From positions 1-64,000 of the IMG/VR virus record IMGVR_UViG_2858943916_000002: a DNA stretch of 64,000 nucleotides; one strand, written 5' to 3'. A model generated the notes under the pieces. The model searched no databases and had not been told where the DNA came from. It saw only the letters and a program-made list of their open reading frames with translations. Below are positions 30,768 through 53,533 of this stretch, piece by piece. Numbering within the stretch: position 1 is the stretch's first letter; every line of letters begins with the position of its first letter. Position numbers and translations under genes: made by a program. Origin of the DNA: a virus (Duplodnaviria > Caudoviricetes).

Positions 30768-31415
30768 TCACAGAGTCAAGGGGGGGGCAAAGACAAAGAC
30801 GATATAGCCATATACTCCTAGCCCCGCCAACAAGAGCAGAAATAGGGGCACCCGACGCAATAGTGCTCTCCTCCGCTCTACCGTCTGCAGCCGAGAAAGC
30901 GCAATGCGACTGAGGCCGACTTGAGCAATTGCAAGTGCTACGAAAAGCCAAAACAACAATTTCGGCGTGCTCGGGTGGTCGGAGACCGCGAGCGCCGCGC
31001 AAACCGCCGCTGCGAAGAGGAAAATCGCCCCTTCCCAGTAATAGTCCGAATCCTTGAACATTGAGGCTTCCGCAGTCTTGCTGCGTAGCACCCCACGACC
31101 TGCCGCGAGCGCTGCGGCTGCTGATAGCCAGAACGATGCATAGCTGAAAACGCCTGCACGCTTATCGGCGTTCAACACGTACTCATAGTACGGCATTGTG
31201 TTCGTCGCCAGGACAGCGCAGATAGGTACGACACTAAGAAAAGCCAGCAGCAGGATCACCGGGACTTCCCGTGAATCAAGGTCGCCTGAACTACCCGACT
31301 TGGCCTTTCCCGGGTTACCCAGAGCTGCGTCTTGCAGATTGACCTTAGGCGCTTGTGGCGTCTGAAGCTGGTGCGCGTTCCGCGAAGCCTTTCTTCTCCT
31401 TTGCCTACGATTCAC
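30768..31415 (-). CDS. four-TM membrane protein
   Basis: four or five hydrophobic segments after a basic N-terminal tail; GGAG RBS with GTG start. Confidence 0.7.
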   Translation of the reverse strand: MNRRQRRRKASRNAHQLQTPQAPKVNLQDAALGNPGKAKSGSSGDLDSREVPVILLLAFLSVVPICAVLATNTMPYYEYVLNADKRAGVFSYASFWLSAAAALAAGRGVLRSKTAEASMFKDSDYYWEGAIFLFAAAVCAALAVSDHPSTPKLLFWLFVALAIAQVGLSRIALSRLQTVERRRALLRRVPLFLLLLAGLGVYGYIVFVFAPPLTL

Positions 31416-31468
31416 CGGCTGCTCCTACTTTCAATTTGGGAGCAAATTTTAGGAACCGTTGAGCGCTG

Positions 31469-32068
31469 TTAAACGGTCAAGTAAACGCTGGAACCAGCCT
31501 CTGTCTGGATGTCAATCGGAAACTCCGCGCAGACAATGCATGCCTCCCGCATTTGAGTATCCAGACGATGCAAGGCGGCTCGACGCTTCCCTTCTACCAG
31601 CACCCGGTACGCGCCTCCGGCACGCTGTATGGCCGAATAAGGCAAGTCGAAGCGATCCGACAGATCACGCAGGCGCGGCCGGCCACGCAGGATATTGGTG
31701 ACCAGCAGGTCGGTCAGTTCACGCTCACAACTGTCGGCGAGCCCCTCCGGGTTAAGCCATTCCGAGATCCGACGTGCGCTGGCCGCCCCCTCTTCACCGG
31801 TTCCATACTGCGCCCGCAGGATGTGGAAGCCCACGCTATCGCCCAGCGTCCGCTCCATCAGCTTGACGATGAACACGGCCTGCGCGTGCCACTCATGCGG
31901 CGTCAGTCCTGATAGGGCCTTGCGCTCGTACTCGACGTCGAACCGCTCGCGCAGGGCCTCGCAGACCAACTGCGTCGGGTTCTTCGGCTCGATGGGCATG
32001 GCCAGCATCAAGTAGGCCACGGCGATCGCGTGCTCGGGGCACGAAAACGTTCCGGCTTCACGCGGCAT
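31469..32068 (-). CDS. late antiterminator Q-like protein
   Basis: lambdoid position after replication genes; GL.P.E.HAQA; AAGGAG RBS. Confidence 0.6.
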   Translation of the reverse strand: MPREAGTFSCPEHAIAVAYLMLAMPIEPKNPTQLVCEALRERFDVEYERKALSGLTPHEWHAQAVFIVKLMERTLGDSVGFHILRAQYGTGEEGAASARRISEWLNPEGLADSCERELTDLLVTNILRGRPRLRDLSDRFDLPYSAIQRAGGAYRVLVEGKRRAALHRLDTQMREACIVCAEFPIDIQTEAGSSVYLTV

Positions 32069-32558
32069 TCTTTACTCCTTTCAAATTCTCCAGCTCACAG
32101 CCTGGCTGTATCGGGCGGGTATAGACAGCCAAGCTCGGCACGCCCGGCTCGTCGTCCGAAAAATTTGTCGCGTACGGGTACCATTCCTGTTTCCACACGA
32201 GGAGGAATATATGAACAACCAAGTTCAGCAGCAGTTTGGCTTTCGGGTTGAAGATGCAGTAGAAACACCCTATGGTTGGACGGCCGCGTATTGGATCACT
32301 CGGCCTGGTGGGGCAGACCACGTTCGAGTAGATGTGCCTACGGTATTTCCAACATCCAAGGAGGCCGAAGAGAGTGCGCTCATGCGAGCCGAGGATCATC
32401 TTGCAGATGACTATGGCGGCATACGAAAGATCCGAGTTCCGCCAGCTCAACTCATGAGTTTTGGACCAAACGGTAAACGCTAAATGGAGCGCTGTACGCC
32501 CCTTTGACTGGCCGTCCGTTTCAAGGTTTATCAGGAGCGCCTTGGCCATTGAGTTCAT
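32058..32558 (-). CDS. 166-aa coupled ORF antisense to the 32211-32483 moron
   Basis: ATGA overlap upstream; overlaps Q start downstream. Confidence 0.45.
   Translation of the reverse strand: MNSMAKALLINLETDGQSKGRTALHLAFTVWSKTHELSWRNSDLSYAAIVICKMILGSHERTLFGLLGCWKYRRHIYSNVVCPTRPSDPIRGRPTIGCFYCIFNPKAKLLLNLVVHIFLLVWKQEWYPYATNFSDDEPGVPSLAVYTRPIQPGCELENLKGVKNAA
32211..32483 (+). CDS. hypothetical moron protein (90 aa)
   Basis: strong GAGGAGG RBS; globular composition. Confidence 0.75.
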   Translation: MNNQVQQQFGFRVEDAVETPYGWTAAYWITRPGGADHVRVDVPTVFPTSKEAEESALMRAEDHLADDYGGIRKIRVPPAQLMSFGPNGKR

Positions 32559-33034
32559 GCCAGGTCACTCACCAAATCCACGGCCCTGAACCAACTGCCA
32601 AGGCCCGCACCGGCCGATGCTCCCGCCGTGTCTCCGCGCGGCTGCGCTGACGCGCATTCGTCGCCAAGCACCCGCAGCATCAACGCCCCCAATGCCTGCG
32701 CGGTCACATTCCCGCTGGCCGCTTCCGCGAAGTCCTTGCGGCTGTGCCGGCTCAGCCAGGGAATCACGCTGTCCGGCACAGGCTGGCCGGGCAGCGCCGC
32801 CTTCAGGCGCCCAGCCAGGATGAACAGGCTTCGACGGTTGTGCATGCGAGCGGTGATGCCTGCCTGCTCCGCGTAGGCCGTGCCGTGGTGCAGATGGCAG
32901 TACCAGTCGGACACGCCGGTCGTGGTGTCAGCGATAGACCCGGGCAGCATGCAGCCCCTGACGCAGCACATGCCGTAGCCCTGGACCGGATGCTGGTGGC
33001 GGGTCACCGCCGCGGATGCCTCGGCGTAGCTCAT
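32555..33034 (-). CDS. hypothetical phage protein with Cys/His cluster
   Basis: ATGA-coupled to O; CCVRGC..WYCHLH. Confidence 0.75.
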   Translation of the reverse strand: MSYAEASAAVTRHQHPVQGYGMCCVRGCMLPGSIADTTTGVSDWYCHLHHGTAYAEQAGITARMHNRRSLFILAGRLKAALPGQPVPDSVIPWLSRHSRKDFAEAASGNVTAQALGALMLRVLGDECASAQPRGDTAGASAGAGLGSWFRAVDLVSDLA

Positions 33035-34020
33035 GCGGTTCGCTCCTGCTCATCACGCCGGCGACGCAGCTCGGCGAAGATCCGATCGCGGTAGCTGGCG
33101 TAGGTCTCGCCGCCCCGAGCAAACATGCCCAGTTCACGCCCCACGCGGTCCGTCGCCGCATCGGACTTCCACCACTCGCCCCAGTCCTGGCCGGTCTCGG
33201 CACGAGGCCCCACCGCGTTCGGCACGACGGGAGCGCGAGCTGTTCGCACGCGGTTTCGCCAGGTCGCCAGCCAGTCGAGCTTGCAGCCCTTCGCTCCTGG
33301 CACGGCGGTCCAGTAGTCGCGGAATTCGTCGGCCAGTACGCGCACCTGCTCGGCGGACAGGTCGGGCCGCAGGTCGAGCGCCGCCTTGCCCCAGGACATC
33401 GGCAGAACCCAGTCTGCCGGCAGGCGAGATCCACGCTTCGTGGTGCTGACAGTGTTACGGCTTTTAGAGGTATTACCTACGAAGATAGGTATTACCTCTT
33501 TCTTATGTTTTATTTCTGTAGGGAAAACTGGTACTGCTTCGGGTTTACCCAGGTGTCCCAAATTTGGTACTGCTTCGGGGTAAGCGGTACCAGTTTTGGG
33601 ACTGCTTCCCTCAAAATCATCGGAAGCTATCCCAATTTCGGTACCGCTTAGCTGTCCCAAATCTGGTACTGCTTGGGCTTCGGAAGCTGTCCCGTTTTCG
33701 GTACCGCTTTGCTGATCCGAAGCTGTACCAGAATTGGTACCGCTTGCTGGTTCGCACAGCCGGAACACGACCACCGACTTAGTGGCCCCTGCCCGCTCGC
33801 CGCTATCGACCAGGAAACCTGCGTCGATCAGCCGGCGCAGATTGGCGAGCACCGTCTTGCGGTCTTGCCCAGTCTGCTGCGCGATCAGGGTGGTGGATGC
33901 AAATGCGCTCCACGGCGCTTGCTTGCCGTGCGCATAATGCGCCAGTGCCACCAGAATGAACTTGGCTGGGGAATGGCAAACAGGCTGGGCCAATGCCCAA
34001 GCGACAGCTTGAGCACTCAT
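33031..34020 (-). CDS. lambda O-like replication initiator (N-terminal wHTH)
   Basis: AVAWAL..AKFILVALA...IA.QTG....V...L..L; internal iterons. Confidence 0.88.
   Translation of the reverse strand: MSAQAVAWALAQPVCHSPAKFILVALAHYAHGKQAPWSAFASTTLIAQQTGQDRKTVLANLRRLIDAGFLVDSGERAGATKSVVVFRLCEPASGTNSGTASDQQSGTENGTASEAQAVPDLGQLSGTEIGIASDDFEGSSPKTGTAYPEAVPNLGHLGKPEAVPVFPTEIKHKKEVIPIFVGNTSKSRNTVSTTKRGSRLPADWVLPMSWGKAALDLRPDLSAEQVRVLADEFRDYWTAVPGAKGCKLDWLATWRNRVRTARAPVVPNAVGPRAETGQDWGEWWKSDAATDRVGRELGMFARGGETYASYRDRIFAELRRRRDEQERTA
33521..33745. repeat. replication origin iterons inside O
   Basis: six 21-bp copies of (G/A)T(C/A)CC-N5-GG(T/G)AC(T/C)GCTT at 33555, 33587, 33629, 33654, 33689 and 33725, plus a partial copy at 33521, beside an AT-rich tract. 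Confidence 0.9.
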
Positions 34021-34340
34021 CGTCGTCCCCCAGGGGCCACAACCCTACCCTGCTCTACTACCGGTGCAACTCGTCCAATTCGTCCAGTGGCATTGCATTC
34101 ACCACACATTAGCTTTTGAGGTTCACCAGAATACAACCATGCCAGGAATGGTTTGCGCACCAACTCATGGAATCGGTCGCGCGCCATTTGATCCAGGTCG
34201 AGCTCGGCGCGCGACTCCACACCGGATACGCGACGAATGAACGCAGCGGCCTCATCGGCGCAGTGAACGCCAGCAAAAACCCAGAACTTCGGATTTCGAC
34301 TCAGCCGGACGGCCAGCCAGCAAATCGAATTGGCCTTCAT
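34017..34340 (-). CDS. hypothetical phage protein upstream of O
   Basis: GVESRAELD..FHELVRKPF; ATGA-coupled to O. Confidence 0.8.
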   Translation of the reverse strand: MKANSICWLAVRLSRNPKFWVFAGVHCADEAAAFIRRVSGVESRAELDLDQMARDRFHELVRKPFLAWLYSGEPQKLMCGECNATGRIGRVAPVVEQGRVVAPGGRR

Positions 34341-37300
34341 TCGATATGCTCGAGTAAATCCCCTGCGGCAACACCCCGCTCCTCCGGCCCCTTACGGCAT
34401 ACACTGTTGGCTCTCACTCTGAACAGACGGGAGACGACCGACCATGAAGAAGTTAATAGTTGCGCTGAGGTATGAGCCATCCGTTGCGTTGCTCTTCGGG
34501 ACGGCTGGCGTTGAATACCGCACAGATGGCGTTGTGGCTCCCGATGGGACGCAACTACCGGTGTGCCTATTACTCGTGGCATGCTCATCGGTTTCAGCCA
34601 CGGACCATGGCCTTGTACGACTGGAAATTCGCCCAAGAGAGGGCGACCGAGCGCTTCCGTTCTCAGCGGTCTCAGTCCCAGCAGCACTCCTTGCCTGGAG
34701 CATTGATTCAGGAAACGAGCGAGACTTCCCCGTGGGATTCCTACGTACCCAGGTCTAAGGCCGCGCATTGGCGTTGGGTGCAAGAGAACTTGATGCCGTA
34801 ACAGATACCCGCTACTCTTGATAGTTACTTTTCTGTTACATCCAAGCGGAGTTGAAAGTGAATCAAGAGCAACACGAACTACTTGTCCAAGCTCATCAGC
34901 AAATGCTGAACCTTGCTCAAATAAACGAGGTGCAAATGAAGTTGAGCATGTCGATGCGAGAAGATCTGATGGCGGCGCAAATTGCCCTGCGCGCAGTGTG
35001 CGAAGTTCTTTCTCCCGAGGGAAAACGGCTTGCGGCTGAGCACATCCGGGAATTCGGGGAAGAGTTTCGGGATCGATTTGCAAAGGACCACCCAGACCGG
35101 GCGATTGACGGGTTCTCAATTGCAATAAATGCCTATATAGAAGGCTTGGGAGCCGCCCCCATCGCCGAGGGTGTGAAGTAGGACGCACGACAAAAGCGAT
35201 TCGCCCATTCGCGCCTGCCAATCGCTGTTCAACTAGGAGATCGATTTGGATAACCCCGTCTATCGCTCCGCGATGGAAGGCCTGCAGGAAATGTATGGGC
35301 CTTTGTCTGGATGGCAAAGCAACGTAGGCGTTCGCACCAACACTTCGCCGAAGGGAAAAATCACCCTTTATCACGATCGAATCGCTTCCGGAAATAAGGC
35401 CGAGCTCGCGGTCGATCCTGAATCGATGGCCCGAGCGACCGGGCAAGGCGAAGACCAAGCCGAAGCTTTCATAAAACAACTGTCGCAGTTGACGGGGCGC
35501 GCCACCCTGACCCATGCAAGGTACAAATGGCCGCGGATCGGCTTGGCTGTGGACTCCGACGTGGAAGCAGTTTTGGAAGCTCTGCAAACTCTGTTCAATG
35601 AGGTGGCCTCGGACGCCCTCTCTTCGGATCCGTCGCCCAGCTACTGGTGGGTGAGCCACAACCAAATGCATCGCCGAGAGCTCAGCGGCGGCTACATCTG
35701 GTGTCCCCAGACCAAGAAAGGCGGCGGGGCGAGAGAAACCTGGACGAACGTATCTCGCGTGCGACGGGGAGACATCGTCTTTTCCTACGCAAAAACGAAG
35801 CTCCAAGCTGTTGGCGTTGCGCTTGGCGATGCACAGGAGGCAAGTGCTCCCAGCGAGGCGTATCACTCGTGGAACGATGCTGGATGGCGCGTGACAATCC
35901 AGTGGGAATCCCTTGGATCCCCGTTGTCTCCCAAAGAGCATTGGGACGAAATCGGCGACCTTTTCCCTGCTGTCCATTCGCCACTGCGCGAGGATGGCGG
36001 CGGAAACATGACATACCTGGCGGCGTTGAGCGTGCCTCTGGGTTTGAAGCTGCTGGACCTGATCGGCATGACGGACGACGACGCCCTCGCGAACGTTGAT
36101 CGGGAGATGGTCAAGGTGTCTGGCGTCGATAAGACCGAGGTTGAGCGGGTCTACCAAGCGCGTATAGGCCAAGGCACATATAGAAAGAACGTCATGTCCG
36201 TCGAACGCTACTGCCGCGTAACGGGTGTCAGCAATGTGGATCTGCTCATCGCGAGCCACATCAGGCCGTGGCGTCAAAGCTCGAACCAACAACGCCTCGA
36301 CGGCAACAATGGCCTGCTTCTCTCGCCTCACGTCGATAAGTTGTTCGACTCGGCCTGGATATCGTTTTCCGATCAGGGAGAGATCCTGGTTGCCAGCGGA
36401 GAGGTCAGAGAGGTGCTCATCGCCTGGGGCATTGACCCAGACATGAACGTAGGGCAATTCAATGAGGACCAAGAAAAATACTTGGCCTACCATCGAGACG
36501 TCCTTTTCTCGGAAAAGGCTAAGCAACCAGAAGAATGAGCGATCGGCCTCAATCGCAATCAGAAGAATCCACAAAGCACCTTGGATTGAACCTGGCTGAG
36601 TTCGTACGTAATCCCACCAACCTTCACTAGACTCCCTGCAGGGAGCTTCCACATACGCAGCGATTAATCGGGAGATTTGGTCAGAATGGCCCTCTACTTT
36701 TTGAGCTACGACTTGCGCAAATCCCGCAACTACCAACCGCTGTACGATGAACTGGCAAAGCTCGATGCCACTCGGGTCCTGGAATCCCTTTGGGCGTTCA
36801 AACTCGCCGACACCAATTGCACATACGTTCGGGACTATTTCCGTCAATTTATCGATGCAGACGATGGGTTGATCGTGACCCAAGCTGTCGACTGGGCAAC
36901 TTGGAACACGGATAAAGCCCCACCCAACACATAAGTCACGCCGTGCAGGAGGTAGCACCGCGCCCTCCTCCTGCCGGTCTAACGCCCGCGCCGCCTGTTC
37001 TAGATCAAGATGCGCATACTCAACTGGCGCCAATTTGACTTGGTCGGACACGTCGGGACGAATCCGCAACCTAGAATTGCCAACCAATTTGGCGGCCAGT
37101 TCCAGCCATATATGATCGGGATTCCCCAACCCCAACCATATGTGGAAGGAACTGACCATGGACCCGCAAGTAAGAGGACAATTGGCGACAATCACCTTCG
37201 CGCTTGGCAAACTCATCCGCTCGACCAGCCGTACCGCCGAACAGAGGCAAGACGAGGTGGAGCGGCTGCGGAGCTGGGCGGACCACCAGCTCAAAGAGGC

Positions 37301-37396
37301 ATATCGCGCGGGCGCAGATTCTGCCGGCCTCACGCCGGAGCAACAAGCCTTCCTGTCAGGAGTCCACGACACCGTAGACCAGTTGGCATGGCTCAT
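34337..37396 (-). CDS. 1019-aa ORF antisense to the defence island, ATGA-coupled at both ends; function unknown
   Basis: stop-free in the ORF track; junctions checked by hand; composition resembles antisense translation. Confidence 0.4.
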   Translation of the reverse strand: MSHANWSTVSWTPDRKACCSGVRPAESAPARYASLSWWSAQLRSRSTSSCLCSAVRLVERMSLPSAKVIVANCPLTCGSMVSSFHIWLGLGNPDHIWLELAAKLVGNSRLRIRPDVSDQVKLAPVEYAHLDLEQAARALDRQEEGAVLPPARRDLCVGWGFIRVPSCPVDSLGHDQPIVCIDKLTEIVPNVCAIGVGEFERPKGFQDPSGIELCQFIVQRLVVAGFAQVVAQKVEGHSDQISRLIAAYVEAPCRESSEGWWDYVRTQPGSIQGALWILLIAIEADRSFFWLLSLFREKDVSMVGQVFFLVLIELPYVHVWVNAPGDEHLSDLSAGNQDLSLIGKRYPGRVEQLIDVRREKQAIVAVEALLVRALTPRPDVARDEQIHIADTRYAAVAFDGHDVLSICALAYTRLVDPLNLGLIDARHLDHLPINVREGVVVRHADQVQQLQTQRHAQRRQVCHVSAAILAQWRMDSREKVADFVPMLFGRQRGSKGFPLDCHAPSSIVPRVIRLAGSTCLLCIAKRNANSLELRFCVGKDDVSPSHARYVRPGFSRPAAFLGLGTPDVAAAELSAMHLVVAHPPVAGRRIRREGVRGHLIEQSLQSFQNCFHVGVHSQADPRPFVPCMGQGGAPRQLRQLFYESFGLVFALPGRSGHRFRIDRELGLISGSDSIVIKGDFSLRRSVGANAYVALPSRQRPIHFLQAFHRGAIDGVIQIDLLVEQRLAGANGRIAFVVRPTSHPRRWGRLPSLLYRHLLQLRTRQSPGLGGPLQIDPETLPRIPGCAQPQAVFPREKELRTLRAGQFAPPSDLLASTCSTSFAPRLFEQGSAFADELGQVVRVALDSLSTPLGCNRKVTIKSSGYLLRHQVLLHPTPMRGLRPGYVGIPRGSLARFLNQCSRQGVLLGLRPLRTEALGRPLLGEFPVVQGHGPWLKPMSMPRVIGTPVVASHREPQRHLCGIQRQPSRRATQRMAHTSAQLLTSSWSVVSRLFRVRANSVCRKGPEERGVAAGDLLEHIE
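34444..34758 (+). CDS. hypothetical island protein (104 aa)
   Basis: GGGAG RBS; beta-rich composition. Confidence 0.7.
   Translation: MKKLIVALRYEPSVALLFGTAGVEYRTDGVVAPDGTQLPVCLLLVACSSVSATDHGLVRLEIRPREGDRALPFSAVSVPAALLAWSIDSGNERDFPVGFLRTQV
34852..35181 (+). CDS. hypothetical helical island protein (109 aa)
   Basis: GGAG RBS; amphipathic helices. Confidence 0.7.
   Translation: MKVNQEQHELLVQAHQQMLNLAQINEVQMKLSMSMREDLMAAQIALRAVCEVLSPEGKRLAAEHIREFGEEFRDRFAKDHPDRAIDGFSIAINAYIEGLGAAPIAEGVK
35246..36538 (+). CDS. EVE/PUA-like + HNH endonuclease (putative modification-dependent restriction)
   Basis: YWWV.HNQ...ELSGGYIWCPQ..RRGDIVFSY; RIGQG.YRK..CRVTG..LIASHIRPW..LDG.NGLLLSPHVDKLFD. Confidence 0.9.
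   Translation: MDNPVYRSAMEGLQEMYGPLSGWQSNVGVRTNTSPKGKITLYHDRIASGNKAELAVDPESMARATGQGEDQAEAFIKQLSQLTGRATLTHARYKWPRIGLAVDSDVEAVLEALQTLFNEVASDALSSDPSPSYWWVSHNQMHRRELSGGYIWCPQTKKGGGARETWTNVSRVRRGDIVFSYAKTKLQAVGVALGDAQEASAPSEAYHSWNDAGWRVTIQWESLGSPLSPKEHWDEIGDLFPAVHSPLREDGGGNMTYLAALSVPLGLKLLDLIGMTDDDALANVDREMVKVSGVDKTEVERVYQARIGQGTYRKNVMSVERYCRVTGVSNVDLLIASHIRPWRQSSNQQRLDGNNGLLLSPHVDKLFDSAWISFSDQGEILVASGEVREVLIAWGIDPDMNVGQFNEDQEKYLAYHRDVLFSEKAKQPEE
36686..36934 (+). CDS. stand-alone Cas2/VapD-like small protein
   Basis: YFLSYDL...Y..LY..L..L....LES.W..RD.....ID.DD.LIV. Confidence 0.7.
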   Translation: MALYFLSYDLRKSRNYQPLYDELAKLDATRVLESLWAFKLADTNCTYVRDYFRQFIDADDGLIVTQAVDWATWNTDKAPPNT

Positions 37397-37478
37397 CGAC
37401 TCCCCCGTTTACCCTCAGGGCCAAACGAGCGGTACATCCGCTCCGCGCAACGACGATCCCAGTCCTCCTGATCTCTGA
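37158..37478 (+). CDS. hypothetical helical island protein (106 aa)
   Basis: AAGGA RBS; helical composition. Confidence 0.7.
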   Translation: MDPQVRGQLATITFALGKLIRSTSRTAEQRQDEVERLRSWADHQLKEAYRAGADSAGLTPEQQAFLSGVHDTVDQLAWLIDSPVYPQGQTSGTSAPRNDDPSPPDL

Positions 37479-37548
37479 CGTCGCGGGTGTATCGGCGCAG
37501 CGCGGGCGTAATTAACCAGAGCAAGGCGCGGGCATACAGTTCACGCAT
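37393..37548 (-). CDS. 51-aa coupled ORF (MRELYARALLWLITPALRR...)
   Basis: hand-translated; ATGCGTGA overlap upstream, ATGA overlap downstream. Confidence 0.55.
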   Translation of the reverse strand: MRELYARALLWLITPALRRYTRDVRDQEDWDRRCAERMYRSFGPEGKRGSR

Positions 37549-37897
37549 GGCAGCCCCCACTCGCGTCGGTATCTGGCGACTGCTCTTTGAACTTGCGCTC
37601 CCAGCCGATCACGAGGTAGCCAAACGGTCGGCTCCACTCCGTCACACCGGCTGGCGGGACCGCGCCAGGAATGATCTCGGCCAACTCATATGTGAACCGC
37701 CCTGCGACATCGCCAACGGGTCGAAAGGTGGCATAGCCAATGTGGTTGCCGGCGCCATCACGTAGGCGCATGCCCAAGAGCGTCGGAGCTTCAGGGCGCA
37801 TTTTTGGCCCCTCAAGCACCAGTCGAACGCCACCGCGGCCCGCAGGCTCGAGCCAGGCGTTGATATCGAGGTCAGCGTAGGTTCGGAATTCACGCAT
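37541..37897 (-). CDS. hypothetical phage protein (118 aa)
   Basis: AAGGAG RBS; overlapped at both ends. Confidence 0.7.
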   Translation of the reverse strand: MREFRTYADLDINAWLEPAGRGGVRLVLEGPKMRPEAPTLLGMRLRDGAGNHIGYATFRPVGDVAGRFTYELAEIIPGAVPPAGVTEWSRPFGYLVIGWERKFKEQSPDTDASGGCHA

Positions 37898-38153
37898 TGG
37901 AGGCTCCTTGCTGCGAATGGGCGCCCTGCCCCTTCCCCTTAAACTGGCTGCTCTCACACAAACCATCCTTGGGAAAGGAGCTGGGCATGGAAAAAACGGC
38001 GCGGCAGCAGTTCGACGACCTGCTGAAGGAATCGCACTTCTTCAACGATTCGATCAACACGGCAAAGCGAGCCGCTGGATACGCGGCCGGGCAAATCCTC
38101 GGCGCCCTCATCGAAGGGGATGTCACCATGTACGAAAAGCTCAAGCGACTCAT
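37890..38153 (-). CDS. 87-aa coupled ORF antisense to 37987-38328
   Basis: ATGA overlap upstream, ATGCGTGA overlap downstream. Confidence 0.4.
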   Translation of the reverse strand: MSRLSFSYMVTSPSMRAPRICPAAYPAARFAVLIESLKKCDSFSRSSNCCRAVFSMPSSFPKDGLCESSQFKGKGQGAHSQQGASNA

Positions 38154-38328
38154 GGCCGAAGACTTCCAGCGAGACTCGGACCAAGGCCCGAGCCTGGACA
38201 GTGCAGCTCGGCTGGTGCTCCATGGAATTCAGCAGGGACTCGATTCGGTTGCGCGTCCAAGCGCGCGGCTGCAGCAGACGCGGCAGCGTTCGGCCGCGCG
38301 GTCGCCGGGGAACCCAGCCGCCGACTGA
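37987..38328 (+). CDS. hypothetical island protein (113 aa)
   Basis: AAGGAG RBS; helical composition. Confidence 0.7.
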   Translation: MEKTARQQFDDLLKESHFFNDSINTAKRAAGYAAGQILGALIEGDVTMYEKLKRLMAEDFQRDSDQGPSLDSAARLVLHGIQQGLDSVARPSARLQQTRQRSAARSPGNPAAD

Positions 38329-38428
38329 TCGCTACCATCACCAGCGCACGTTGCATGGCGCGCCTGATCTGCGGCGGCCCGAAAGCCTTGGCGCCCTTCT
38401 CGCGCCCATATCCAGCCCGATTACGCAT
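38150..38428 (-). CDS. 92-aa ORF coupled to cro
   Basis: ATGCGTAA overlap with cro stop, GGAG upstream. Confidence 0.45.
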   Translation of the reverse strand: MRNRAGYGREKGAKAFGPPQIRRAMQRALVMVAISRRLGSPATARPNAAASAAAARLDAQPNRVPAEFHGAPAELHCPGSGLGPSLAGSLRP

Positions 38429-38708
38429 GGCTTGGCTCCTGCGGCGCGGCCGCGGCCAGCTCCGGCCAGAGACGCCCGTAGTCATTGGGCCGCAAGTCCT
38501 GGCGGCGGCATTCGCCATCGGTGATCAATTCAATGTCCGCAGCGATAAGGCCGGCGAGCTTATAGCCGTAAGCGACCTGGCGGAGGTATCCCACCGACGT
38601 GCCACGTTGGCGACAGCGTGCCTGCGCTTCCAGCTTGGGGGTCTTCCTCAACCACTGGAGCAAAGGCTCCACTGGCACTCTTGTTCGGGATAAGGGTTGT
38701 TGACTCAT
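38421..38708 (-). CDS. cro: Cro-like repressor
   Basis: GTSVGYLRQVAYG HTH..IE..T.G....DLRP; divergent from cI. Confidence 0.85.
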   Translation of the reverse strand: MSQQPLSRTRVPVEPLLQWLRKTPKLEAQARCRQRGTSVGYLRQVAYGYKLAGLIAADIELITDGECRRQDLRPNDYGRLWPELAAAAPQEPSHA

Positions 38709-38717
38709 CCTAAAACA

Positions 38718-38779
38718 TTACCGCAGGGTAATTATTTTGACAAGAAAAATTTACCCCTGGGTTGTTTACCTGCGGGTAG
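38718..38779. promoter_or_regulatory. three cro/cI operators
   Basis: TTACCGCAGGGTAA (38718), TTACCCCTGGGTTG (38751), TTACCTGCGGGTAG (38766). Confidence 0.85.
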
Positions 38780-38801
38780 CTGTCAGGCAACACTTCACAC
38801 C

Positions 38802-39179
38802 ATGGAAATTGACGATATCTACGCAGTCCGCCTTCAGCGCTTTCGGACCCTGATGGACGACCGGTTCGGCGGCAAACAAGCCGCGATCGCTACTGCGGTT
38901 GGCAAGCCAGCCAACTATGTTTCCCGCATCATCAGCGGGAATAAAAAGCTGGGCGAAGAAATCGTCCGGGAATTCGAGACATCCCTGGACCTTCCCGCGT
39001 ATTGGTTTGACGGGCTAACCGATACAACGGCATGGCCCTTCCCTAGCGTCAGCCGAGCGGCGTATGAGTCGCTTACGCCCGAACAACGCCGTGGCATCGA
39101 ACAATGGGTTGCTAGGCAAGTGGAAGCATTCGGCGACACGCACACGCCGGGCGCGGGTAACTCCAAAAAGAGCGCCTAG
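38802..39179 (+). CDS. cI: CI-like repressor lacking an S24 peptidase domain (125 aa)
   Basis: R..RFRTL..FGGKQAAIA..VGK.ANYVSRIISG..GE...R.FE..L.LP.YWFD; short WPF C-terminal domain. Confidence 0.88.
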   Translation: MEIDDIYAVRLQRFRTLMDDRFGGKQAAIATAVGKPANYVSRIISGNKKLGEEIVREFETSLDLPAYWFDGLTDTTAWPFPSVSRAAYESLTPEQRRGIEQWVARQVEAFGDTHTPGAGNSKKSA

Positions 39180-39207
39180 GCGTCGACCGACGGCTGCATC
39201 AACGACT

Positions 39208-39495
39208 TCAGTCTACGTAGATCGGTTCCCCTGCAAGGGTAGGCTCGCGCTGCTGCGCAGCCGCGTCCTGAATTGCGTACCGCAATTGAACGATCTCCCT
39301 GCGCGTCAGAAAATCTGGCATCCCAATCGTGGCCAACAGCGCCAACGGGCCGAGCACCACTCCCCATAAGAACCAGCACGCTCCGCATGCCCCTTTGGCA
39401 TTGGCGATGTGATGCGCCAGGAATGCTGAAACGAACCAGGAGGCCACCAATAGGATGGCCCAGATCGAAGTAAGCAGAAACGCCAACACCGTCAT
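39208..39495 (-). CDS. small membrane protein
   Basis: AAGGAG RBS; two TM segments. Confidence 0.75.
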   Translation of the reverse strand: MTVLAFLLTSIWAILLVASWFVSAFLAHHIANAKGACGACWFLWGVVLGPLALLATIGMPDFLTRREIVQLRYAIQDAAAQQREPTLAGEPIYVD

Positions 39496-39611
39496 CTCAC
39501 TCTCCTTGGAAGCTGAACCGCCAATGGGGAGCTAATCGTAACAGATTGATTCTTAAATCTCGTTCTATCTCCTAGACGCGGAAAGGGTCCTACTTTCGCT
39601 TCCCGCCAAGA

Positions 39612-49928: not shown

Positions 49929-50648
49929 GAAAATAAAAAGACCGGAAAGCGTGACGCAACTGGCGACGCCCGGTGGCAACTCCGCCCCCCGGACCAGCCC
50001 GACTCGGTTGGCGCCCAGGCAGGCGCGGCATGAGCGGGATCTCGAATCCGCAGGTCGGCGCTTGGTAAGATGGCCGTCGCGCATCCTTGCGCGGCAGGCT
50101 ATCGGGTCATCGAAACCAACTGAAACGCCAATTTTGTGAAATTTAGCTATCGGTCAGGAATATAGACAGGCAAAAGGGGACGAATTAGGCGATGCCTTTA
50201 ACTATTGTTAATTTCTTTGCTGATTTCGTAACATTCTGATTCCACTCCTCCCCTCCTGTCCAAGGTGGCGCCGCCGGCATGCGCTGGCACGAAAGGGAGC
50301 AATACCCAGACAACAAGGGTTGGAACCAGAAGCCGAACGGCCTCTTGCGCCGCGCGGGCCTGTCGGCCGCAACAGCGCCGATGGCGGGAGAATTGAGGGG
50401 AAAGCCATAGGGGAATGACGACGGGCGCTCCACCCTCGCATTGCGCGAGGCATCGTCATCAGCGCTGTCCTACGTGCCGCCCATGCCGGCCCGGTCTGTG
50501 CCGACCGGGAATCAGCGCTCAGAAAATACAGGTCTTTTGCGTGCAGGTCTTTTGCGCGCCTTCGACCAGAAAAACCGCCACCCGACGATAAACCGATGCC
50601 ATGCGGGCGCCTGTCGACATGGCGCGGTGGACCGCCGCTGCATCACGG

Positions 50649-50690
50649 AAAACAAAGCGGGCCTCGGATTGCTCCGAGACCCGCATTGTT
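50649..50690 (-). terminator. terminator downstream of the tRNA 3' fragment
   Basis: GCGGGCCTCGGA..TCCGAGACCCGC hairpin with A-run on the plus strand. Confidence 0.75.
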
Positions 50691-50693
50691 CTT

Positions 50694-50740
50694 TGGTAGG
50701 CCCCCCGAGAGTCGAACTCGGCACCAACGGATTATGAGTC
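50694..50740 (-). tRNA. 3' fragment (47 bp) of tRNA(CAT), probably Ile2; att core of prophage 2
   Basis: minus strand GACTCATAATCCGTTGGTGCCGAGTTCGACTCTCGGGGGGCCTACCA has anticodon loop, T arm and CCA, but no 5' half. Confidence 0.9.
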
Positions 50741-50781
50741 TGCCGAGGAATCTAGGCTTTATGCGGGTTTCGGGCCGGTGG

Positions 50782-50856
50782 CCGTTCCGCAATCATAATG
50801 GCGTACCGCCGAAAAATCCCTTTAGAATCAAACACCGATTTTCCATTGCGGAACGG
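50782..50856. repeat. 12-bp perfect inverted repeat, candidate integrase arm sites
   Basis: CCGTTCCGCAAT (50782) and ATTGCGGAACGG (50845), next to the att core. Confidence 0.6.
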
Positions 50857-50876
50857 TTTTTTTTGGGGGGGCGGAC

Positions 50877-51095
50877 ATGGACGACAACGGAATCCTGGAG
50901 CAGGTGCCCGGCCAGTACGTGGCCCAGGCCGCCCTTACCCTGCCGCCGGCGGCCACCGCCGAGGACCGCGACTACCAGGTCGAGATCGACGCCGGGCACG
51001 CCGGTCGGGTGCGCATCACCTTTCGGCGCCACAAGGCCCGGCGTGCCAAACACACGCATTGGTTCTGGGCAGCCAAGCGAGCGGACGCTGTCTAG
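50877..51095 (+). CDS. hypothetical protein (72 aa) at the prophage end
   Basis: high-GC codon pattern; converges on Rz with overlapping stops. Confidence 0.65.
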   Translation: MDDNGILEQVPGQYVAQAALTLPPAATAEDRDYQVEIDAGHAGRVRITFRRHKARRAKHTHWFWAAKRADAV

Positions 51096-51556
51096 GGCCT
51101 GACGCCGCGCAGGCCGCGGATATAGCCTTGCAGGCCGTTCACCTGGTCGGCCCATCCTGCGGCGTCGGCAGCCAGGTCTCCATATTCCGCGTAGCACGCT
51201 GCAAAACCTCCGATCCAGTCGGGGCCGGCCTCATCAGGTCGGCGGCCGGCTCGGGGATTTGCGGGATCGCGGCCGGCGGAGCGGAGCAGGCGGTCAAGCT
51301 GAGCGCGGGCAGCAGCCAGGCCAGTTTTCGCAGCCTCGCGCGCCAGGACGGCACCACGATATTGGGCATCAGCACGGTCTTTCTCCAGTTGGTAGGCTTC
51401 GGTGATGGCGCGCTGCGCGGCCTCGGCGCGGGCGCGCTCCTTGGTGACGCCGGCGGCCTCCCGGCTGGCGCCGTACAGCACGACGCCGGCGCCCAGCACC
51501 AGCACCACCAGCGCGCCGCCGATCCAGGGCAGCGCCAACTTCCAGAACGGGTTCAT
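51092..51556 (-). CDS. Rz-like inner-membrane spanin
   Basis: N-terminal TM, coiled coil, ATGA-coupled to endolysin. Confidence 0.85.
   Translation of the reverse strand: MNPFWKLALPWIGGALVVLVLGAGVVLYGASREAAGVTKERARAEAAQRAITEAYQLEKDRADAQYRGAVLAREAAKTGLAAARAQLDRLLRSAGRDPANPRAGRRPDEAGPDWIGGFAACYAEYGDLAADAAGWADQVNGLQGYIRGLRGVRP
51139..51375 (-). CDS. Rz1-like lipoprotein nested in Rz
   Basis: lipobox LSLTAC; IPEP.ADLMRP.P. Confidence 0.85.
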   Translation of the reverse strand: MLMPNIVVPSWRARLRKLAWLLPALSLTACSAPPAAIPQIPEPAADLMRPAPTGSEVLQRATRNMETWLPTPQDGPTR

Positions 51557-52044
51557 GCCTGCACCTCGGCGGCGGCCTGGCGGTAGAGGTCAGGCCAGGT
51601 GTGCGGGTGCGGCTTGCCCGGCCGCCAGGTGCGCAGGTACAGCGCCCATCCTGCGTCAGCATCGCCGACAGCCGGCAGCGCCTTCGGATCGGTCCACAGC
51701 AGCAACCGGGCGACGCCGGCGGCCAGCACGTCGTCATACTCCAGAGCCGCATAAATCGCGTCCGGGTCATAAGCCACACTGCGGGCGTTGCACAGCACCG
51801 CCAGGTGATCCTTGCTCGCCGGGTGCAGGAACACGCCCCACACACCGCCCCGGCTCGCCCGCGTACCCTTTTCGAATTGCCAGAAGCCCCGCGCCGGTCC
51901 GCCGATCTGCTGGCGGTGCGTGAACCGGCTTTCCTGCAGGCCGATGGCCAGCAACATCACGCGCGCCGCGGGCGTGTCCATGGCAGCCGGCAGCAGCGAC
52001 AGCGCGGGGGTGATGGCGGCGGAAACGATAGTGTCCAAGGTCAT
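51553..52044 (-). CDS. endolysin, SLT-like transglycosylase (163 aa)
   Basis: 136/163 identical by hand alignment to the 6331-6822 endolysin. Confidence 0.8.
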   Translation of the reverse strand: MTLDTIVSAAITPALSLLPAAMDTPAARVMLLAIGLQESRFTHRQQIGGPARGFWQFEKGTRASRGGVWGVFLHPASKDHLAVLCNARSVAYDPDAIYAALEYDDVLAAGVARLLLWTDPKALPAVGDADAGWALYLRTWRPGKPHPHTWPDLYRQAAAEVQA

Positions 52045-52325
52045 AGCGTGGGTTTCCTGATGTGCTTTGCCGTCACAGCGGCGACATAGAAGGCGGCCGA
52101 CGCGGCAAGCGCTGCATCGCCGGCACTCGCCCAGCCGGCAATGAAGATCCGGCACGCCGCGCCGGTGGCGGTCAGGCTGACGGCGGCCAGGCCGATACGC
52201 TCGAAAGTGGTGTCCTTGATGGTGCGGGAGAAGACCGCCAGCACCGCCCCGCCAGCCACGATGAGCCAACTCACGAACGCCAGCACGGCCCAGAGCGTCA
52301 GGTAAATGGTGCTGTCCATGGTCAT
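52041..52325 (-). CDS. three-TM holin/antiholin-like protein
   Basis: hydrophobic, ATGA-coupled in the lysis cassette. Confidence 0.7.
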   Translation of the reverse strand: MTMDSTIYLTLWAVLAFVSWLIVAGGAVLAVFSRTIKDTTFERIGLAAVSLTATGAACRIFIAGWASAGDAALAASAAFYVAAVTAKHIRKPTL

Positions 52326-52630
52326 GCCCCCTTACCGCGCACGCGGTCGATCACTGCCTGCCACAGCGCGCCGATGGGCGCCGCCTGCACGGCCTCCCAC
52401 GCGCGCGACACGATGGCCATGCCGAACATTCCAGTCAGGAAGCCGGCCAAGCCTTCCGGAATACCCAGCAGCAATGACAGGTATGGCGACGCGTAGAAGG
52501 CCACCAGCGAACCGCTGGCCGCCATGCTCAGGCGCGCCGGCCACGAACCCTGCAGGTAGCGCATGGACACGGCCGCGCCCAGCACCCCGGCGAACTTTGC
52601 CGCGAAGGCGTCGAAGTCTTGGATGTTCAA
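52322..52630 (-). CDS. holin
   Basis: AGVLGAAVS..GS..AFYASP..GFL.GMFGMAI. Confidence 0.8.
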   Translation of the reverse strand: MNIQDFDAFAAKFAGVLGAAVSMRYLQGSWPARLSMAASGSLVAFYASPYLSLLLGIPEGLAGFLTGMFGMAIVSRAWEAVQAAPIGALWQAVIDRVRGKGA

Positions 52631-52687
52631 TCGCGTCCCCTATAGACGAAAAAAATCCCGCACGAGGCGGGCACTTTGGGCTAACCC

Positions 52688-53057
52688 TTATCTCTCAAAT
52701 GATCGATGCCTGATCACTGACAAATGGCCGCCGGGATCAATAGGAAATATGGGATTTGGGATAGACGGCGAAGGCAACGAAGCATCCCCGCCGGCATAGA
52801 CGATCGCGGCAACATAGCCGTCCAAATCATATGGCACGCGATACCTGCCACTCAGATTCAAGATCCCATGATGCATGTTGTTTGACACATTGAACCCAAG
52901 GCCGAGCCCACCAAAGCCGACGCCGGCTGTCTCGATGTTGGCACCGGAAAGCGACTGTGCCATAGTTAGCTATAGGCAGCGATGTGACTTTCTCGCAGGG
53001 CGTGGGCGACTGGAAGAGTTCCGTCTTTGGCGAATGAAGCCGCAGCAATATCTTCAT
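52688..53057 (-). pseudogene. probable frameshifted gene (about 32 + 90 aa) or two overlapping ORFs
   Basis: coupled start 53057 gives a plausible N-terminus then junk-like sequence; the +1 frame from about 52963 looks protein-like. Confidence 0.45.
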
Positions 53058-53533
53058 CAGATGATGAACTCATCAAGCGTCATGACGGCTGGCACGTTCG
53101 TCACAAAATTCATATCTCCGCGGCTACCGAGATAGACGGAGCCGGACCAAATGCGCCACCGAAACTCGTAGGTATGTGCGCCTGAAAGCGGTGTAGTGTC
53201 CCGCCATCGGAGGTAGATCGGAACTACTGCAGCATTCGTCGGGATCGATACGGCGCCCACCTGCTCCAGCAGTTGACCATCACGGAATATCCCGAATAGC
53301 ACCAGGCCATCCGCTGAGCGCCCTACAATGCCGGAAAGCGCCACCTCGACACCACAGGGCTCAGTCATGCCTTCGAGCGTGATCTGCGCCCCAGCGATAG
53401 GCATCCATGAAGGCGTCGCTCCGTATGCAGCGCCTTGGGCCTGAACAATTGCGGATTTTGTACGCGTGTAGCCGCCGCCAGGTGGCCTGCATACACAGGA
53501 CAACTCTTGCAGGTTGATAACAATTTCCGGCAT
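53057..53533 (-). CDS. beta-sandwich-like protein resembling a tail fibre distal domain (158 aa)
   Basis: GAGGGG RBS; PIYLRWRDTTPLSGAHTYEFRWR. Confidence 0.65.
   Translation of the reverse strand: MPEIVINLQELSCVCRPPGGGYTRTKSAIVQAQGAAYGATPSWMPIAGAQITLEGMTEPCGVEVALSGIVGRSADGLVLFGIFRDGQLLEQVGAVSIPTNAAVVPIYLRWRDTTPLSGAHTYEFRWRIWSGSVYLGSRGDMNFVTNVPAVMTLDEFII

What the first reader, a model, noticed from the sequence alone, without database searches (positions are those of the whole stretch)
34337..37396. 1019-codon antisense ORF, ATGA-coupled at both ends, spanning the whole defence island
Seen: 3060 bp without a stop. It crosses or enters five plus-strand genes in three different frames plus their spacers, in DNA of lower GC than the structural genes. 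The next-longest shadow ORFs are 565 and 518 aa and each lies mainly over a single high-GC gene. In-register codon bias can explain only the HNH and Cas2-like parts. The translation looks like antisense text (Cys/Trp/His/Arg-rich, no motif recognised). Inference: selection acts on absence of stops rather than on protein sequence; an overprinted protein is the alternative.
Basis: partly seen in the sequence, partly recalled or inferred. Interest (0 to 1): 0.85.

Follow-up and report, generated by a model that had tools for sequence, protein, structure and literature searches.

The report
Stop-free bridge ORF across antisense cargo
A temperate Achromobacter phage keeps a 1019-codon, apparently meaningless reading frame free of stop codons straight through five genes that sit backwards inside its early operon, most likely so that ribosomes can follow the polymerase to the replication genes; comparable 'ambigrammatic' coding was so far described only in narnaviruses (RNA viruses of eukaryotes).

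Summary
Minus-strand ORF 34337..37396 (1019 codons) is the longest ORF in the window. It overlaps its minus-strand neighbours by ATGA at both ends. It runs antisense through five plus-strand cargo genes in three phases, plus five spacers.

It is not chance: P is about 1e-8.5 to 1e-15 under synonymous recoding. It is not GC3 bias either. In 16 cargo genes that are codon-aligned with such bridge ORFs (9 phages), TCA+CTA occur 0/390 times against 20% A-ending codons in other four-fold families, and TTA occurs 0 times against 69 TTG. Non-aligned cargo, unbridged HNH homologues and operon-sense genes use these codons normally.

The bridge 'protein' is not conserved (39% identity where the sense HNH protein keeps 69%). 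It has no family match and a poor fold prediction.

The ORF is one link in an unbroken chain of 11 start/stop-overlapping ORFs from the cro-like gene to a 199-aa gene (31469..32068). Relatives with different cargo have equivalent bridges of 268-915 codons.

Best reading: a translated, sequence-irrelevant bridge that keeps ribosomes on the early transcript across antisense cargo. This would prevent Rho polarity and deliver ribosomes to downstream genes. Transcription and translation are inferred, not shown. First readers of this scan noted the same relay on this stretch; those notes were unchecked.

The parts
34337..37396 (-). Bridge ORF: 1019 codons, stop-free, in the sense direction of the early operon and antisense to five cargo genes and five spacers
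   Evidence: No Pfam or PHROG family. P about 1e-8.5 to 1e-15. Only long antisense ORFs of related prophages match it.
37393..37396 (-). Upstream ATGA junction: stop of the 51-aa ORF overlaps the start of the bridge
   Evidence: Sequence read; relay offset -1.
37400..37406 (-). Shine-Dalgarno-like GGGGGAG, 3 nt before the bridge ATG
   Evidence: Duplex with the anti-SD is -8.6 kcal/mol, as strong as for the real genes of the operon.
34337..34340 (-). Downstream ATGA junction: bridge stop overlaps the start of g107, which has no SD of its own
   Evidence: g107's best SD-like match is only -3.6 kcal/mol at a spacing of 16 nt.
37393..37548 (-). 51-aa operon-sense ORF directly upstream of the bridge; it overlaps the tail of g112 on the other strand, and its status as a real gene or another bridge is open
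   Evidence: No PHROG family.
34017..34340 (-). g107, first real early gene after the bridge (phrog_19763)
   Evidence: 4e-12.
33031..34020 (-). Replication initiation / primosomal protein (O-like, HTH_36), downstream of the bridge
34444..34758 (+). Cargo g104, a real small-protein family, not codon-aligned with the bridge (offset 1)
   Evidence: Homologues P0007 (54% identity), P0009 and P0010. Antisense stops by offset [10,0,1]. The homologue in L054 gives [6,0,4].
34852..35181 (+). Cargo g109, an ORFan predicted as four helices, not codon-aligned (offset 1)
   Evidence: Best codon score of the six frames. Only its own cluster in the protein collection. AF2 pLDDT 62.9. P(no antisense stop) is 0.001 or less.
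35246..36538 (+). Cargo HNH nuclease (430 aa), codon-aligned; 0 TTA/CTA/TCA among 39 Leu and 37 Ser codons
   Evidence: Pfam HNH_2 3e-11. PADLOC HNH 1.9e-23. 724 homologues. Codon counts.
36677..36934 (+). Cargo g85 (phrog_1090, weakly Cas2-like), codon-aligned
37140..37478 (+). Cargo g112, no family match, not codon-aligned (offset 2); its 3' end overlaps the bridge start and the 51-aa ORF
37041..37160 (+). Conserved 120-bp block with the promoter-like TTGGCG-16-TATGAT (37089-37116) in front of g112; the same block precedes other cargo in L002-L004
37890..38428 (-). Two shorter bridge ORFs (38428..38150 and 38153..37890) that cross the cargo gene 37987..38328 (+) between the cro-like gene and the 118-aa gene
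   Evidence: Relay offsets -5 and -1.
38421..38708 (-). Cro-like repressor gene, first gene of the chain; the divergent cI-like regulator lies at 38697..39179 (+)
   Evidence: phrog_35 (8e-8) and phrog_5736 (4e-13).
31469..38708 (-). Whole early operon: 11 ORFs, every hand-over a start/stop overlap (offsets -1, -5 or -8), with no untranslated gap
   Evidence: controls on other strands.

Best explanation
The 1019-codon ORF is a translated bridge whose product does not matter. The phage's early operon runs on the minus strand from a cro-like gene to the replication genes, and five cargo genes (an HNH nuclease among them) sit inside it in the opposite orientation. After induction the early transcript has to cross about 3 kb of antisense cargo. 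Ribosomes that finish the upstream ORF restart at the overlapping ATG, which has its own GGGGGAG Shine-Dalgarno. They translate the whole antisense stretch and terminate on the ATGA that starts g107, a gene without its own Shine-Dalgarno. Continuous translation keeps the ribosome behind RNA polymerase, covers the nascent RNA so that Rho cannot terminate, and hands ribosomes on to g107 and the replication genes. Any stop codon in the frame would therefore act as a polar mutation and is removed by selection, while missense changes are neutral.

Shown here: the frame is kept stop-free by selection; its amino-acid sequence is not conserved; it is start/stop-coupled at both ends; equivalent bridges exist over different cargo in related phages. 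Inferred: the operon is one transcript, the ORF is translated, and the benefit is avoidance of Rho polarity and/or translational coupling.
For: The frame is non-random, with P between 1e-8.5 and 1e-15. Each cargo gene lacks antisense stops only in the phase the ORF uses. Codon-aligned bridged cargo (16 genes, 9 phages, 3392 codons, GC3 0.64) has TCA+CTA 0/390 against 276/1357 A-ending codons in other four-fold families (p=9e-34), and TTA 0 against TTG 69 (p=1e-19). The six homology-validated genes alone give 0/183 (p=1e-15). Non-aligned cargo has 16/62, unbridged HNH homologues 24/117 and operon-sense early genes 28/351. The sequence is unconstrained but the frame stays open. In HNH, window versus L005, third positions differ at 183/324 codons, sense identity is 69% and reverse-frame identity 39%. 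Of 122 synonymous differences, 112 change the reverse residue, and double synonyms are not enriched. Window versus L001 has 22/32 HNH substitutions at sense position 3. The bridge has an SD of -8.6 kcal/mol, while g107 downstream has none. The operon is a gap-free chain of 11 ORFs at 1.5 ORFs per kb, like pure sense operons. Control strands need 2.2-3.2 ORFs per kb, with gaps and loose offsets. Bridges occur over other cargo: L001 884 codons, L017 915 (annotated as hypothetical protein NH44784_037811), L002/L003 125+643 with an 8-nt overlap, L005 391+389, L009 491, L014 146+390, L054 367/176/165, L057 584 with 4-nt overlaps at both ends, and the record's second prophage 268. Downstream of the bridges lie replication genes. 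Background: Rho suppresses untranslated and antisense transcription, and translation protects against polarity (PMC12360218).
Against: That the operon is a single transcript is inferred from the cro/cI arrangement, and no consensus promoter was found next to cro. A single ORF is not strictly required, since several relatives cross the same cargo with two or three ORFs, although always with an overlapping restart codon. Other prophages carry antisense cargo, including HNH homologues, inside what look like operons without any bridge (L059, L062), so bridging is not universal. It may depend on what lies downstream or on whether the phage has an antiterminator, and neither point was tested. How newly acquired cargo gets cleared of dozens of antisense stops is unexplained. 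This holds especially for non-aligned phases, where DeRisi et al. show synonymous changes cannot always do it (PMC6884476). The sequence data cannot separate the Rho-polarity benefit from the translational-coupling benefit.
Confidence: 0.62

Rival explanations
1. The frame has to be translated, but for another reason than Rho polarity or coupling. Ribosomes might protect the early RNA from pairing with cargo mRNA and from RNase III/E cleavage, or the trailing ribosome might push RNA polymerase through head-on collisions with polymerases transcribing the cargo.
For: The same sequence evidence applies: stop avoidance, no sequence conservation, coupling at both ends. Cargo appears to have its own promoter-like element facing the operon (37089-37116), so convergent transcription and sense/antisense RNA pairs are plausible. 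In ambigrammatic narnaviruses, protection of RNA by ribosomes is the favoured idea (PMC8316113).
Against: This does not by itself explain why the bridge ends exactly on the start codon of an SD-less downstream gene, or why the whole operon is a gap-free relay. No data on RNA stability or collisions are available.
Confidence: 0.2
2. The ORF encodes a functional 1019-aa protein overprinted on the cargo genes, that is, a true antisense overlapping gene.
For: It has a good start context and is very long. Long antisense overlapping genes have been reported as translated and constrained in Pseudomonas aeruginosa (bioRxiv 10.1101/2021.02.09.430400, listed). In phage Fc02 an early-operon gene that overlaps forward-strand ORFs antisense was reported to have exclusion activity (PMC9936078).
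Against: Reverse-frame identity is 39% where the sense protein keeps 69%. Of 122 sense-synonymous differences, 112 alter the reverse residue, and double synonyms are not enriched. The composition of the 'protein' changes wholesale between phages as cargo modules are swapped, and in some phages it is split into two or three ORFs in different frames. There is no Pfam or PHROG match. Only antisense ORFs of close relatives match it among 5.8 billion proteins. A 302-aa segment gives AF2 pLDDT 37.9 (single sequence, so weak evidence).
Confidence: 0.06
3. The ORF is a shadow ORF produced by base composition or codon bias, or by chance.
For: High-GC genomes produce long codon-aligned shadows. This window has shadows of 565 and 518 aa over GC3-rich genes. 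A 'pseudoambigrammatic' virus explained by extreme GC3 bias has been described (PMC13262655, listed).
Against: The island is 56% GC and its genes have GC3 of 0.55-0.68, with about 20% A-ending codons in other families. Three of the five genes and all five spacers are not codon-aligned. Simulations give P of 1e-8.5 or less. HNH homologues and antisense blocks of similar GC elsewhere carry 4-21 aligned antisense stops, for example in L059, L061 and L062; most genes of the unembedded Bcep176 block gp15-20 also carry them.
Confidence: 0.01

Closest known systems
Ambigrammatic narnaviruses (reverse ORF over the RdRp gene; DeRisi et al. 2019, PMC6884476; Retallack et al. 2021, PMC8316113; Wilkinson et al. 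2021, PMC8155312)
   Same: Both have a roughly 3-kb stop-free frame on the complement of real coding sequence. In both it is maintained by avoiding UUA/CUA/UCA in the forward gene. The reverse product has no homologues and no apparent sequence constraint, and the act of translation rather than the protein is thought to matter.
   Different: This is a dsDNA temperate phage of a bacterium, not an RNA virus of eukaryotes. The frame crosses five separate genes and their spacers, three of them in non-aligned phases, whereas all known narnavirus cases are codon-aligned. It is one link of a start/stop-coupled operon relay and has an obvious candidate role in transcriptional polarity, which has no counterpart in narnaviruses.
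Long antisense overlapping genes of Pseudomonas aeruginosa (olg1/olg2; bioRxiv 10.1101/2021.02.09.430400) and antisense overlapping genes of E. coli O157:H7
   Same: Long ORFs antisense to annotated genes in GC-rich proteobacterial DNA.
   Different: Those are embedded in one gene each and were reported to be under purifying selection as proteins. Here the amino-acid sequence is unconstrained, only stops are excluded, and the ORF spans several genes.
Phage Fc02 (P. aeruginosa) early-operon gene 10, overlapping forward-strand olg1 antisense (PMC9936078)
   Same: A gene-sized ORF directly after the cro/ner-type first gene of the lytic operon lies antisense over lysogeny-expressed cargo next to the repressor.
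   Different: It is short, covers a single overlap, and was reported to have an exclusion function of its own. No stop-avoidance analysis was done there. I read only the abstract.
Processive antitermination and polarity suppression (lambda N/nut, Q, HK022 put RNA, RfaH/ops, P4 Psu) and ordinary translational coupling (PMC12360218; PMC12548453)
   Same: The proposed purpose is the same: get RNA polymerase and ribosomes past stretches where Rho would otherwise terminate, and express distal genes of a long operon.
   Different: No dedicated factor or RNA element is involved; no Rfam family matched 31000-39600. The solution is written into the cargo DNA itself as a stop-free antisense frame.

Membership tests
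Ambigrammatic reverse ORF (narnavirus type) | Stop-free frame on the complement that spans nearly the whole forward coding region and is far longer than chance allows | tested here: met
   1019 codons; P between 1e-8.5 and 1e-15
Ambigrammatic reverse ORF (narnavirus type) | Forward genes avoid UUA, CUA and UCA while other A-ending codons are used | tested here: met
   0/390 TCA+CTA and 0 TTA against 20% A-ending in other families
Ambigrammatic reverse ORF (narnavirus type) | Reverse frame is codon-aligned (-0) with the forward gene throughout | tested here: not met
   Aligned only over HNH and g85; g104 and g109 are at offset 1, g112 at offset 2, and five spacers are also crossed
Ambigrammatic reverse ORF (narnavirus type) | RNA virus genome (Narnaviridae) in a eukaryotic host | tested here: not met
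   The record is a dsDNA Achromobacter prophage of 90,185 bp
Antisense overlapping protein-coding gene (overprinting) | Purifying selection on the amino-acid sequence of the overlapping frame | tested here: not met
   Reverse identity 39% against 69% for the sense protein; 112/122 synonymous differences change the reverse residue; no excess of double synonyms
Antisense overlapping protein-coding gene (overprinting) | Evidence of translation (Ribo-seq or mass spectrometry) | not testable with these tools
Compositional shadow ORF | Lies codon-aligned over a GC3-rich gene and is expected from that gene's codon usage | tested here: not met
   GC3 0.55-0.68, three phases, spacers included; simulations; contrast with the 565-aa and 518-aa shadows
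Translationally coupled operon ORF | Start codon overlaps or abuts the upstream stop, a ribosome-binding site is present, and its stop overlaps the next start | tested here: met
   ATGA at 37393-37396 and 34337-34340; GGGGGAG 3 nt upstream
HNH_2 (PF13391) nuclease - cargo gene 35246..36538 only | Match to the family model above the curated cut-off | tested here: met
   43.5 bits against a cut-off of 21; PADLOC HNH 1.9e-23
Cas2 (PF09827) - cargo gene 36677..36934 only | Match above the curated cut-off | tested here: not met
   21.9 bits against a cut-off of 23.8; PADLOC Cas2_II E=0.0011; phrog_1090 1.7e-15

The most novel reading that the evidence does not exclude
Temperate phages have a general, unrecognised way of carrying cargo genes backwards inside essential operons. 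The cargo is recoded so that its antisense strand stays translatable. Junk bridge ORFs, start/stop-coupled to their neighbours, then keep the whole operon under continuous translation. This would make antitermination factors unnecessary and would impose a measurable synonymous-codon signature on cargo and defence genes. Cargo cassettes would circulate between phages already 'pre-opened', together with conserved promoter sockets.
Probability: 0.5. Interest if true: 0.9.

Novelty: new variant of a known kind. Interest (0 to 1): 0.85.

Why it matters
If correct, this shows natural selection acting on a reading frame purely to keep it open. That links three textbook topics (Rho polarity, translational coupling and phage moron acquisition) in a way not described for any phage or bacterium in the literature I could search.

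It would explain how temperate phages can host lysogen-expressed cargo in the orientation that insulates it from lytic transcription without cutting off their own replication genes.

It gives a simple sequence signature: absence of TTA/CTA/TCA, or of the equivalent out-of-phase triplets, in genes antisense to an operon. This signature could be used to detect read-through transcription units computationally and to flag spurious giant 'hypothetical proteins', such as NH44784_037811 in A. xylosoxidans.

It also offers a bacterial, genetically tractable counterpart to the unsolved narnavirus ambigram problem.

Tried and rejected
1. My first guess was that the minus ORF is the real gene and the plus ORFs are shadows. 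I rejected this. HNH_2, PADLOC HNH, phrog_1090 and the g104 homologues all lie on the plus strand, and substitutions pile up at plus-frame third positions.

2. Searching the 1019-aa translation found only two long antisense ORFs of relatives, P0002 and P0003. P0003 had no contig on record.

3. blastn of the island against cultured phages found nothing. tblastn of HNH hit only distant Ruminococcus phages.

4. The genome-contig scan gave a single locus.

5. A home-made codon-usage gene caller, meant to give an unbiased list of embedded genes, was too crude: it missed short genes and once preferred a bridge ORF. The cargo lists are therefore hand-curated, chosen after the ORFs had been seen. I partly offset this with a homology-validated subset, with loci reached independently through g104 and HNH homologues, and with negative controls.

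6. Greedy tiling of any GC-rich strand by ORFs succeeds with few gaps, so 'tiling' alone is weak evidence. ORF length, ORF density and the tightness of hand-overs are what differ.

7. Window versus L001 is uninformative for g104 and g109, with only 2 substitutions.

8. The consensus promoter/terminator scan was at background level.

9. Rfam gave no match.

11. The single-sequence AF2 models are only weakly informative.

12. Bcep176, the closest cultured relative by replication protein, has no embedded cargo and no bridge.

Full report
**Observation**

The window is the first 64 kb of a 90-kb virus record. Its close relatives are Achromobacter prophages (A. ruhlandii; A. xylosoxidans NH44784-1996).

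The minus-strand ORF 34337..37396 exists as described. It has 1019 codons and starts with ATG. At 37393-37396 its ATG overlaps the TGA of the upstream minus ORF. At 34337-34340 its TGA overlaps the ATG of the next minus gene. It is the longest ORF of the window. The next shadow ORFs are 565 and 518 aa, each over one GC3-rich gene. The stretch is 55.9% GC against 65.8% in the structural genes.

**What lies under it**

The plus strand carries five genes.
- g104 (34444..34758) belongs to a real family, with homologues at 54%, 41% and 38% identity.
- g109 (34852..35181) is an ORFan. It has the best codon score of the six frames and a four-helix single-sequence model with pLDDT 63.
- A 430-aa HNH nuclease (35246..36538) matches Pfam HNH_2 at 3e-11 and PADLOC HNH at 1.9e-23, and has 724 homologues.
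- g85 (36677..36934) matches phrog_1090 and is weakly Cas2-like, below Pfam's cut-off.
- g112 (37140..37478) matches no family.

By start phase, HNH and g85 are codon-aligned with the minus ORF, g104 and g109 are shifted by one base, and g112 by two. The translation of the minus ORF matches no Pfam or PHROG family.

**Context**

The flanking minus-strand genes are real early genes. Downstream lie g107 (phrog_19763) and a replication-initiation/primosomal protein. Upstream lies a cro-like repressor gene at 38421..38708, divergent from a cI-like regulator. The cargo block therefore sits backwards inside the phage's rightward early operon, between cro and the replication genes.

**Chance and composition**

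Each cargo gene has zero antisense stops only in the phase that the long ORF uses. The other two phases have ordinary numbers; counts by offset are [10,0,1], [2,0,5], [0,13,13], [0,3,5] and [1,5,0].

I kept all five proteins fixed, resampled synonymous codons and shuffled the spacers. The probability of no stop in the frame was:
- 10^-8.5 when each gene's own codons were only permuted (a null that by construction gives HNH and g85 a free pass);
- 10^-10.8 with the phage's high-GC codon usage;
- 10^-13.0 with the island's own pooled usage;
- 10^-15.3 with the usage of moderate-GC genes of the window.

**Specific avoidance of the three 'reverse stop' codons**

In 16 non-redundant cargo genes from 9 phages that lie codon-aligned under such operon-sense ORFs (3392 codons, GC3 0.64), the counts are:
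- TCA+CTA 0 of 390 TCN/CTN codons, against 276/1357 (20%) A-ending codons in the other four-fold families (p=9e-34);
- TTA 0 against TTG 69, while AAA+GAA+CAA are about equal to AAG+GAG+CAG (p=1e-19).

Restricting to the six genes with independent homology support gives 0/183 (p=1e-15).

The controls use these codons normally:
- the non-aligned cargo genes of the same islands, 16/62;
- HNH homologues that are not bridged, 24/117;
- other unbridged antisense cargo, 16/80;
- operon-sense early genes of the same phages, 28/351 (first version).

The cargo lists were curated by hand after the ORFs had been seen. However, L054 and L057 were reached through homologues of g104 and HNH, not through their antisense ORFs, and they show the same thing.

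**Selection on openness, not on sequence**

Between the window and L005 the HNH proteins are 69% identical. Third codon positions differ at 183 of 324 codons, so synonymous sites are near saturation. The aligned reverse translation is only 39% identical. Of 122 synonymous differences at conserved residues, 112 change the reverse-frame residue. Changes that are synonymous on both strands (CAA/CAG) are no more frequent than comparable single synonyms (p=0.31). Neither allele has a reverse stop. Window versus L001 shows 22 of 32 HNH substitutions at sense position 3, which is reverse position 1.

The two g104 homologues (54% identity) both keep the same non-aligned antisense phase open, with counts [10,0,1] and [6,0,4]. 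A 302-aa piece of the bridge gives pLDDT 37.9.

**The ORF is one link of a relay**

From the cro-like gene (38708) to 31469 the operon-sense strand is a chain of 11 ORFs. Every start codon overlaps the preceding stop (offsets -1, -5 or -8) and there is no gap. The chain includes two shorter bridges over another cargo gene at 37987..38328.

The density, 1.5 ORFs per kb, equals that of the pure-sense late operon. The same greedy procedure on control strands needs 2.2-3.2 ORFs per kb, leaves gaps and gives loose offsets.

The bridge ATG has GGGGGAG 3 nt upstream (-8.6 kcal/mol against the anti-SD, like the real genes). g107, which starts on the bridge's stop, has no SD.

**Relatives**

The cargo is mosaic between phages, yet the operon-sense strand is always open across it:
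- L001/L022: 884 codons, GTGA-coupled upstream;
- L017: 915 codons, annotated in GenBank as a hypothetical protein;
- L002/L003: 125+643 codons, handing over with an 8-nt overlap;
- L004: 142+225+794;
- L005: 391+389, with 4-nt overlaps at all three junctions (its HNH is frameshifted);
- L009: 491 codons over two unrelated membrane-protein-like genes;
- L014: 146+390;
- L054: three separate cargo blocks;
- L057: a different phage with a YdaT/cII-like gene, and a single 584-codon bridge with 4-nt overlaps at both ends;
- the second prophage of this same record: 268 codons.

Not every phage does this. In L059 and L062, HNH homologues and neighbouring genes lie antisense among co-oriented genes with ordinary stop counts and fragmentary antisense ORFs. 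A chromosomal Pseudomonas homologue (L061) also has ordinary stop counts, and the unembedded plus-strand block of Burkholderia phage Bcep176 has fragmentary antisense ORFs.

**Mechanism**

Established background: Rho terminates transcripts that are not being translated, and it is the main suppressor of antisense transcription. Translation coupled to transcription protects against this polarity. Lambdoid phages otherwise use N or Q (review PMC12360218).

A 3-kb untranslated antisense stretch ahead of the replication genes should therefore be strongly polar. A frame that is translated from end to end and coupled at both ends removes the problem, and it also delivers ribosomes to the SD-less g107. 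Under this model a stop codon behaves as a polar mutation, whereas missense changes are neutral. That matches the pattern observed.

This step is inference. I have no transcript or ribosome data. I could not test whether the phage has an antiterminator; Rfam found nothing in 31000-39600. Variants in which translation is needed to protect the RNA, or to help polymerase through convergent cargo transcription, fit the sequence data equally well, apart from the exact hand-over to g107.

**Comparison with the known**

The nearest described phenomenon is the ambigrammatic narnaviruses. They have a roughly 3-kb reverse ORF kept open by avoiding UUA/CUA/UCA. No conserved product is known, and the evidence suggests that translation itself matters (PMC6884476; PMC8316113; PMC8155312).

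The present case shares those features. It differs in several ways:
- it is a dsDNA phage;
- the frame crosses several genes and spacers;
- three of the genes are crossed in non-aligned phases, whereas DeRisi et al. report that all known narnavirus cases are aligned and that only alignment guarantees clearance by synonymous changes;
- it forms part of a coupled operon relay.

It fails the test for an overprinted protein gene and the test for a compositional shadow ORF. Full-text searches for ambigrammatic or reverse ORFs in phages, and for antisense ORFs combined with Rho, prophage or moron terms, returned nothing describing this. The closest phage report is Fc02 gene 10, which overlaps forward-strand ORFs next to the repressor (PMC9936078).

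**Verdict**

My confidence that the frame is kept open by selection is above 0.9. My confidence that the reason is continuous translation of the early transcript across antisense cargo (anti-polarity and/or coupling) is about 0.6.

First readers of this scan noted the same relay on this same stretch (e1-5916175, e1-5916189, e1-5916191). Those notes were unchecked. I reached the reading independently before opening them and tested it here.

Noticed in passing
window 36539-36676: All 7 substitutions between the window and L001 in the HNH-g85 spacer fall at coordinate mod 3 = 1 (36550, 36568, 36586, 36622, 36625, 36637, 36667). That is the wobble phase of the HNH frame, and 6 of the 7 would be synonymous there, although that frame has three stops in the spacer. 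In the bridge frame all 7 are first-position, residue-changing differences. Unexplained; a chance three-phase coincidence has p of about 0.001.
   Followed up: partly
window 36632-36645: A perfect 14-bp palindrome, CTCCCTGCAGGGAG, lies in the same spacer. L001 has one mismatch in it.
   Followed up: no
window 37041-37160 and 37918-37991; L064 10507-10580: Conserved short blocks sit directly in front of exchangeable cargo genes. The first is a 120-bp block (96.7% identical in L002-L004) with the promoter-like TTGGCG-16-TATGAT ahead of g112/g95. The second is a 74-bp block that recurs at 90.5% identity in the record's second prophage ahead of a different cargo gene. They look like promoter/RBS sockets at which cargo is swapped.
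   Followed up: partly
L064 10248-11252 (record about 80447-81451): The second prophage of the same 90-kb record belongs to a distant group (its g159 homologue is 42% identical). It also has a 268-codon junk-like bridge ORF directly after its cro-like gene, across plus-strand cargo, and the next gene starts with a 4-nt overlap.
   Followed up: partly
L055 4832-5354: In an unrelated 56%-GC lambdoid phage (NinB, RusA, YdaS-type cro), a g104 homologue sits antisense right after cro. It is tiled by two abutting ORFs of 100 and 71 codons, with 0-1 nt spacers from the cro stop to the next gene's start. This hints that bridging is not confined to Achromobacter phages.
   Followed up: partly
L005 6001-7292: The HNH homologue (66% identity) is split by a frameshift near 6316. 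Each half has its codon-aligned antisense frame open, and the two bridge ORFs hand over with an NTGA overlap at 6150-6153.
   Followed up: partly
L017 6001-8748: The equivalent 915-codon bridge ORF of A. xylosoxidans NH44784-1996 is annotated in GenBank as a hypothetical protein (NH44784_037811), overlapping three called genes. It is probably not a conventional gene.
   Followed up: yes
window 37393-37478: The 3' tail of cargo g112 (+) and the 51-aa operon-sense ORF (-) overlap by 86 nt. The bridge's ATG and SD lie inside this doubly coding stretch. Whether the 51-aa ORF is a real gene or another bridge was not resolved.
   Followed up: no
window 50400-64000: This is the late region (lysis, tail fibre, baseplate genes) of a second prophage abutting the first, so the 'virus record' holds two tandem prophages.
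   Followed up: partly
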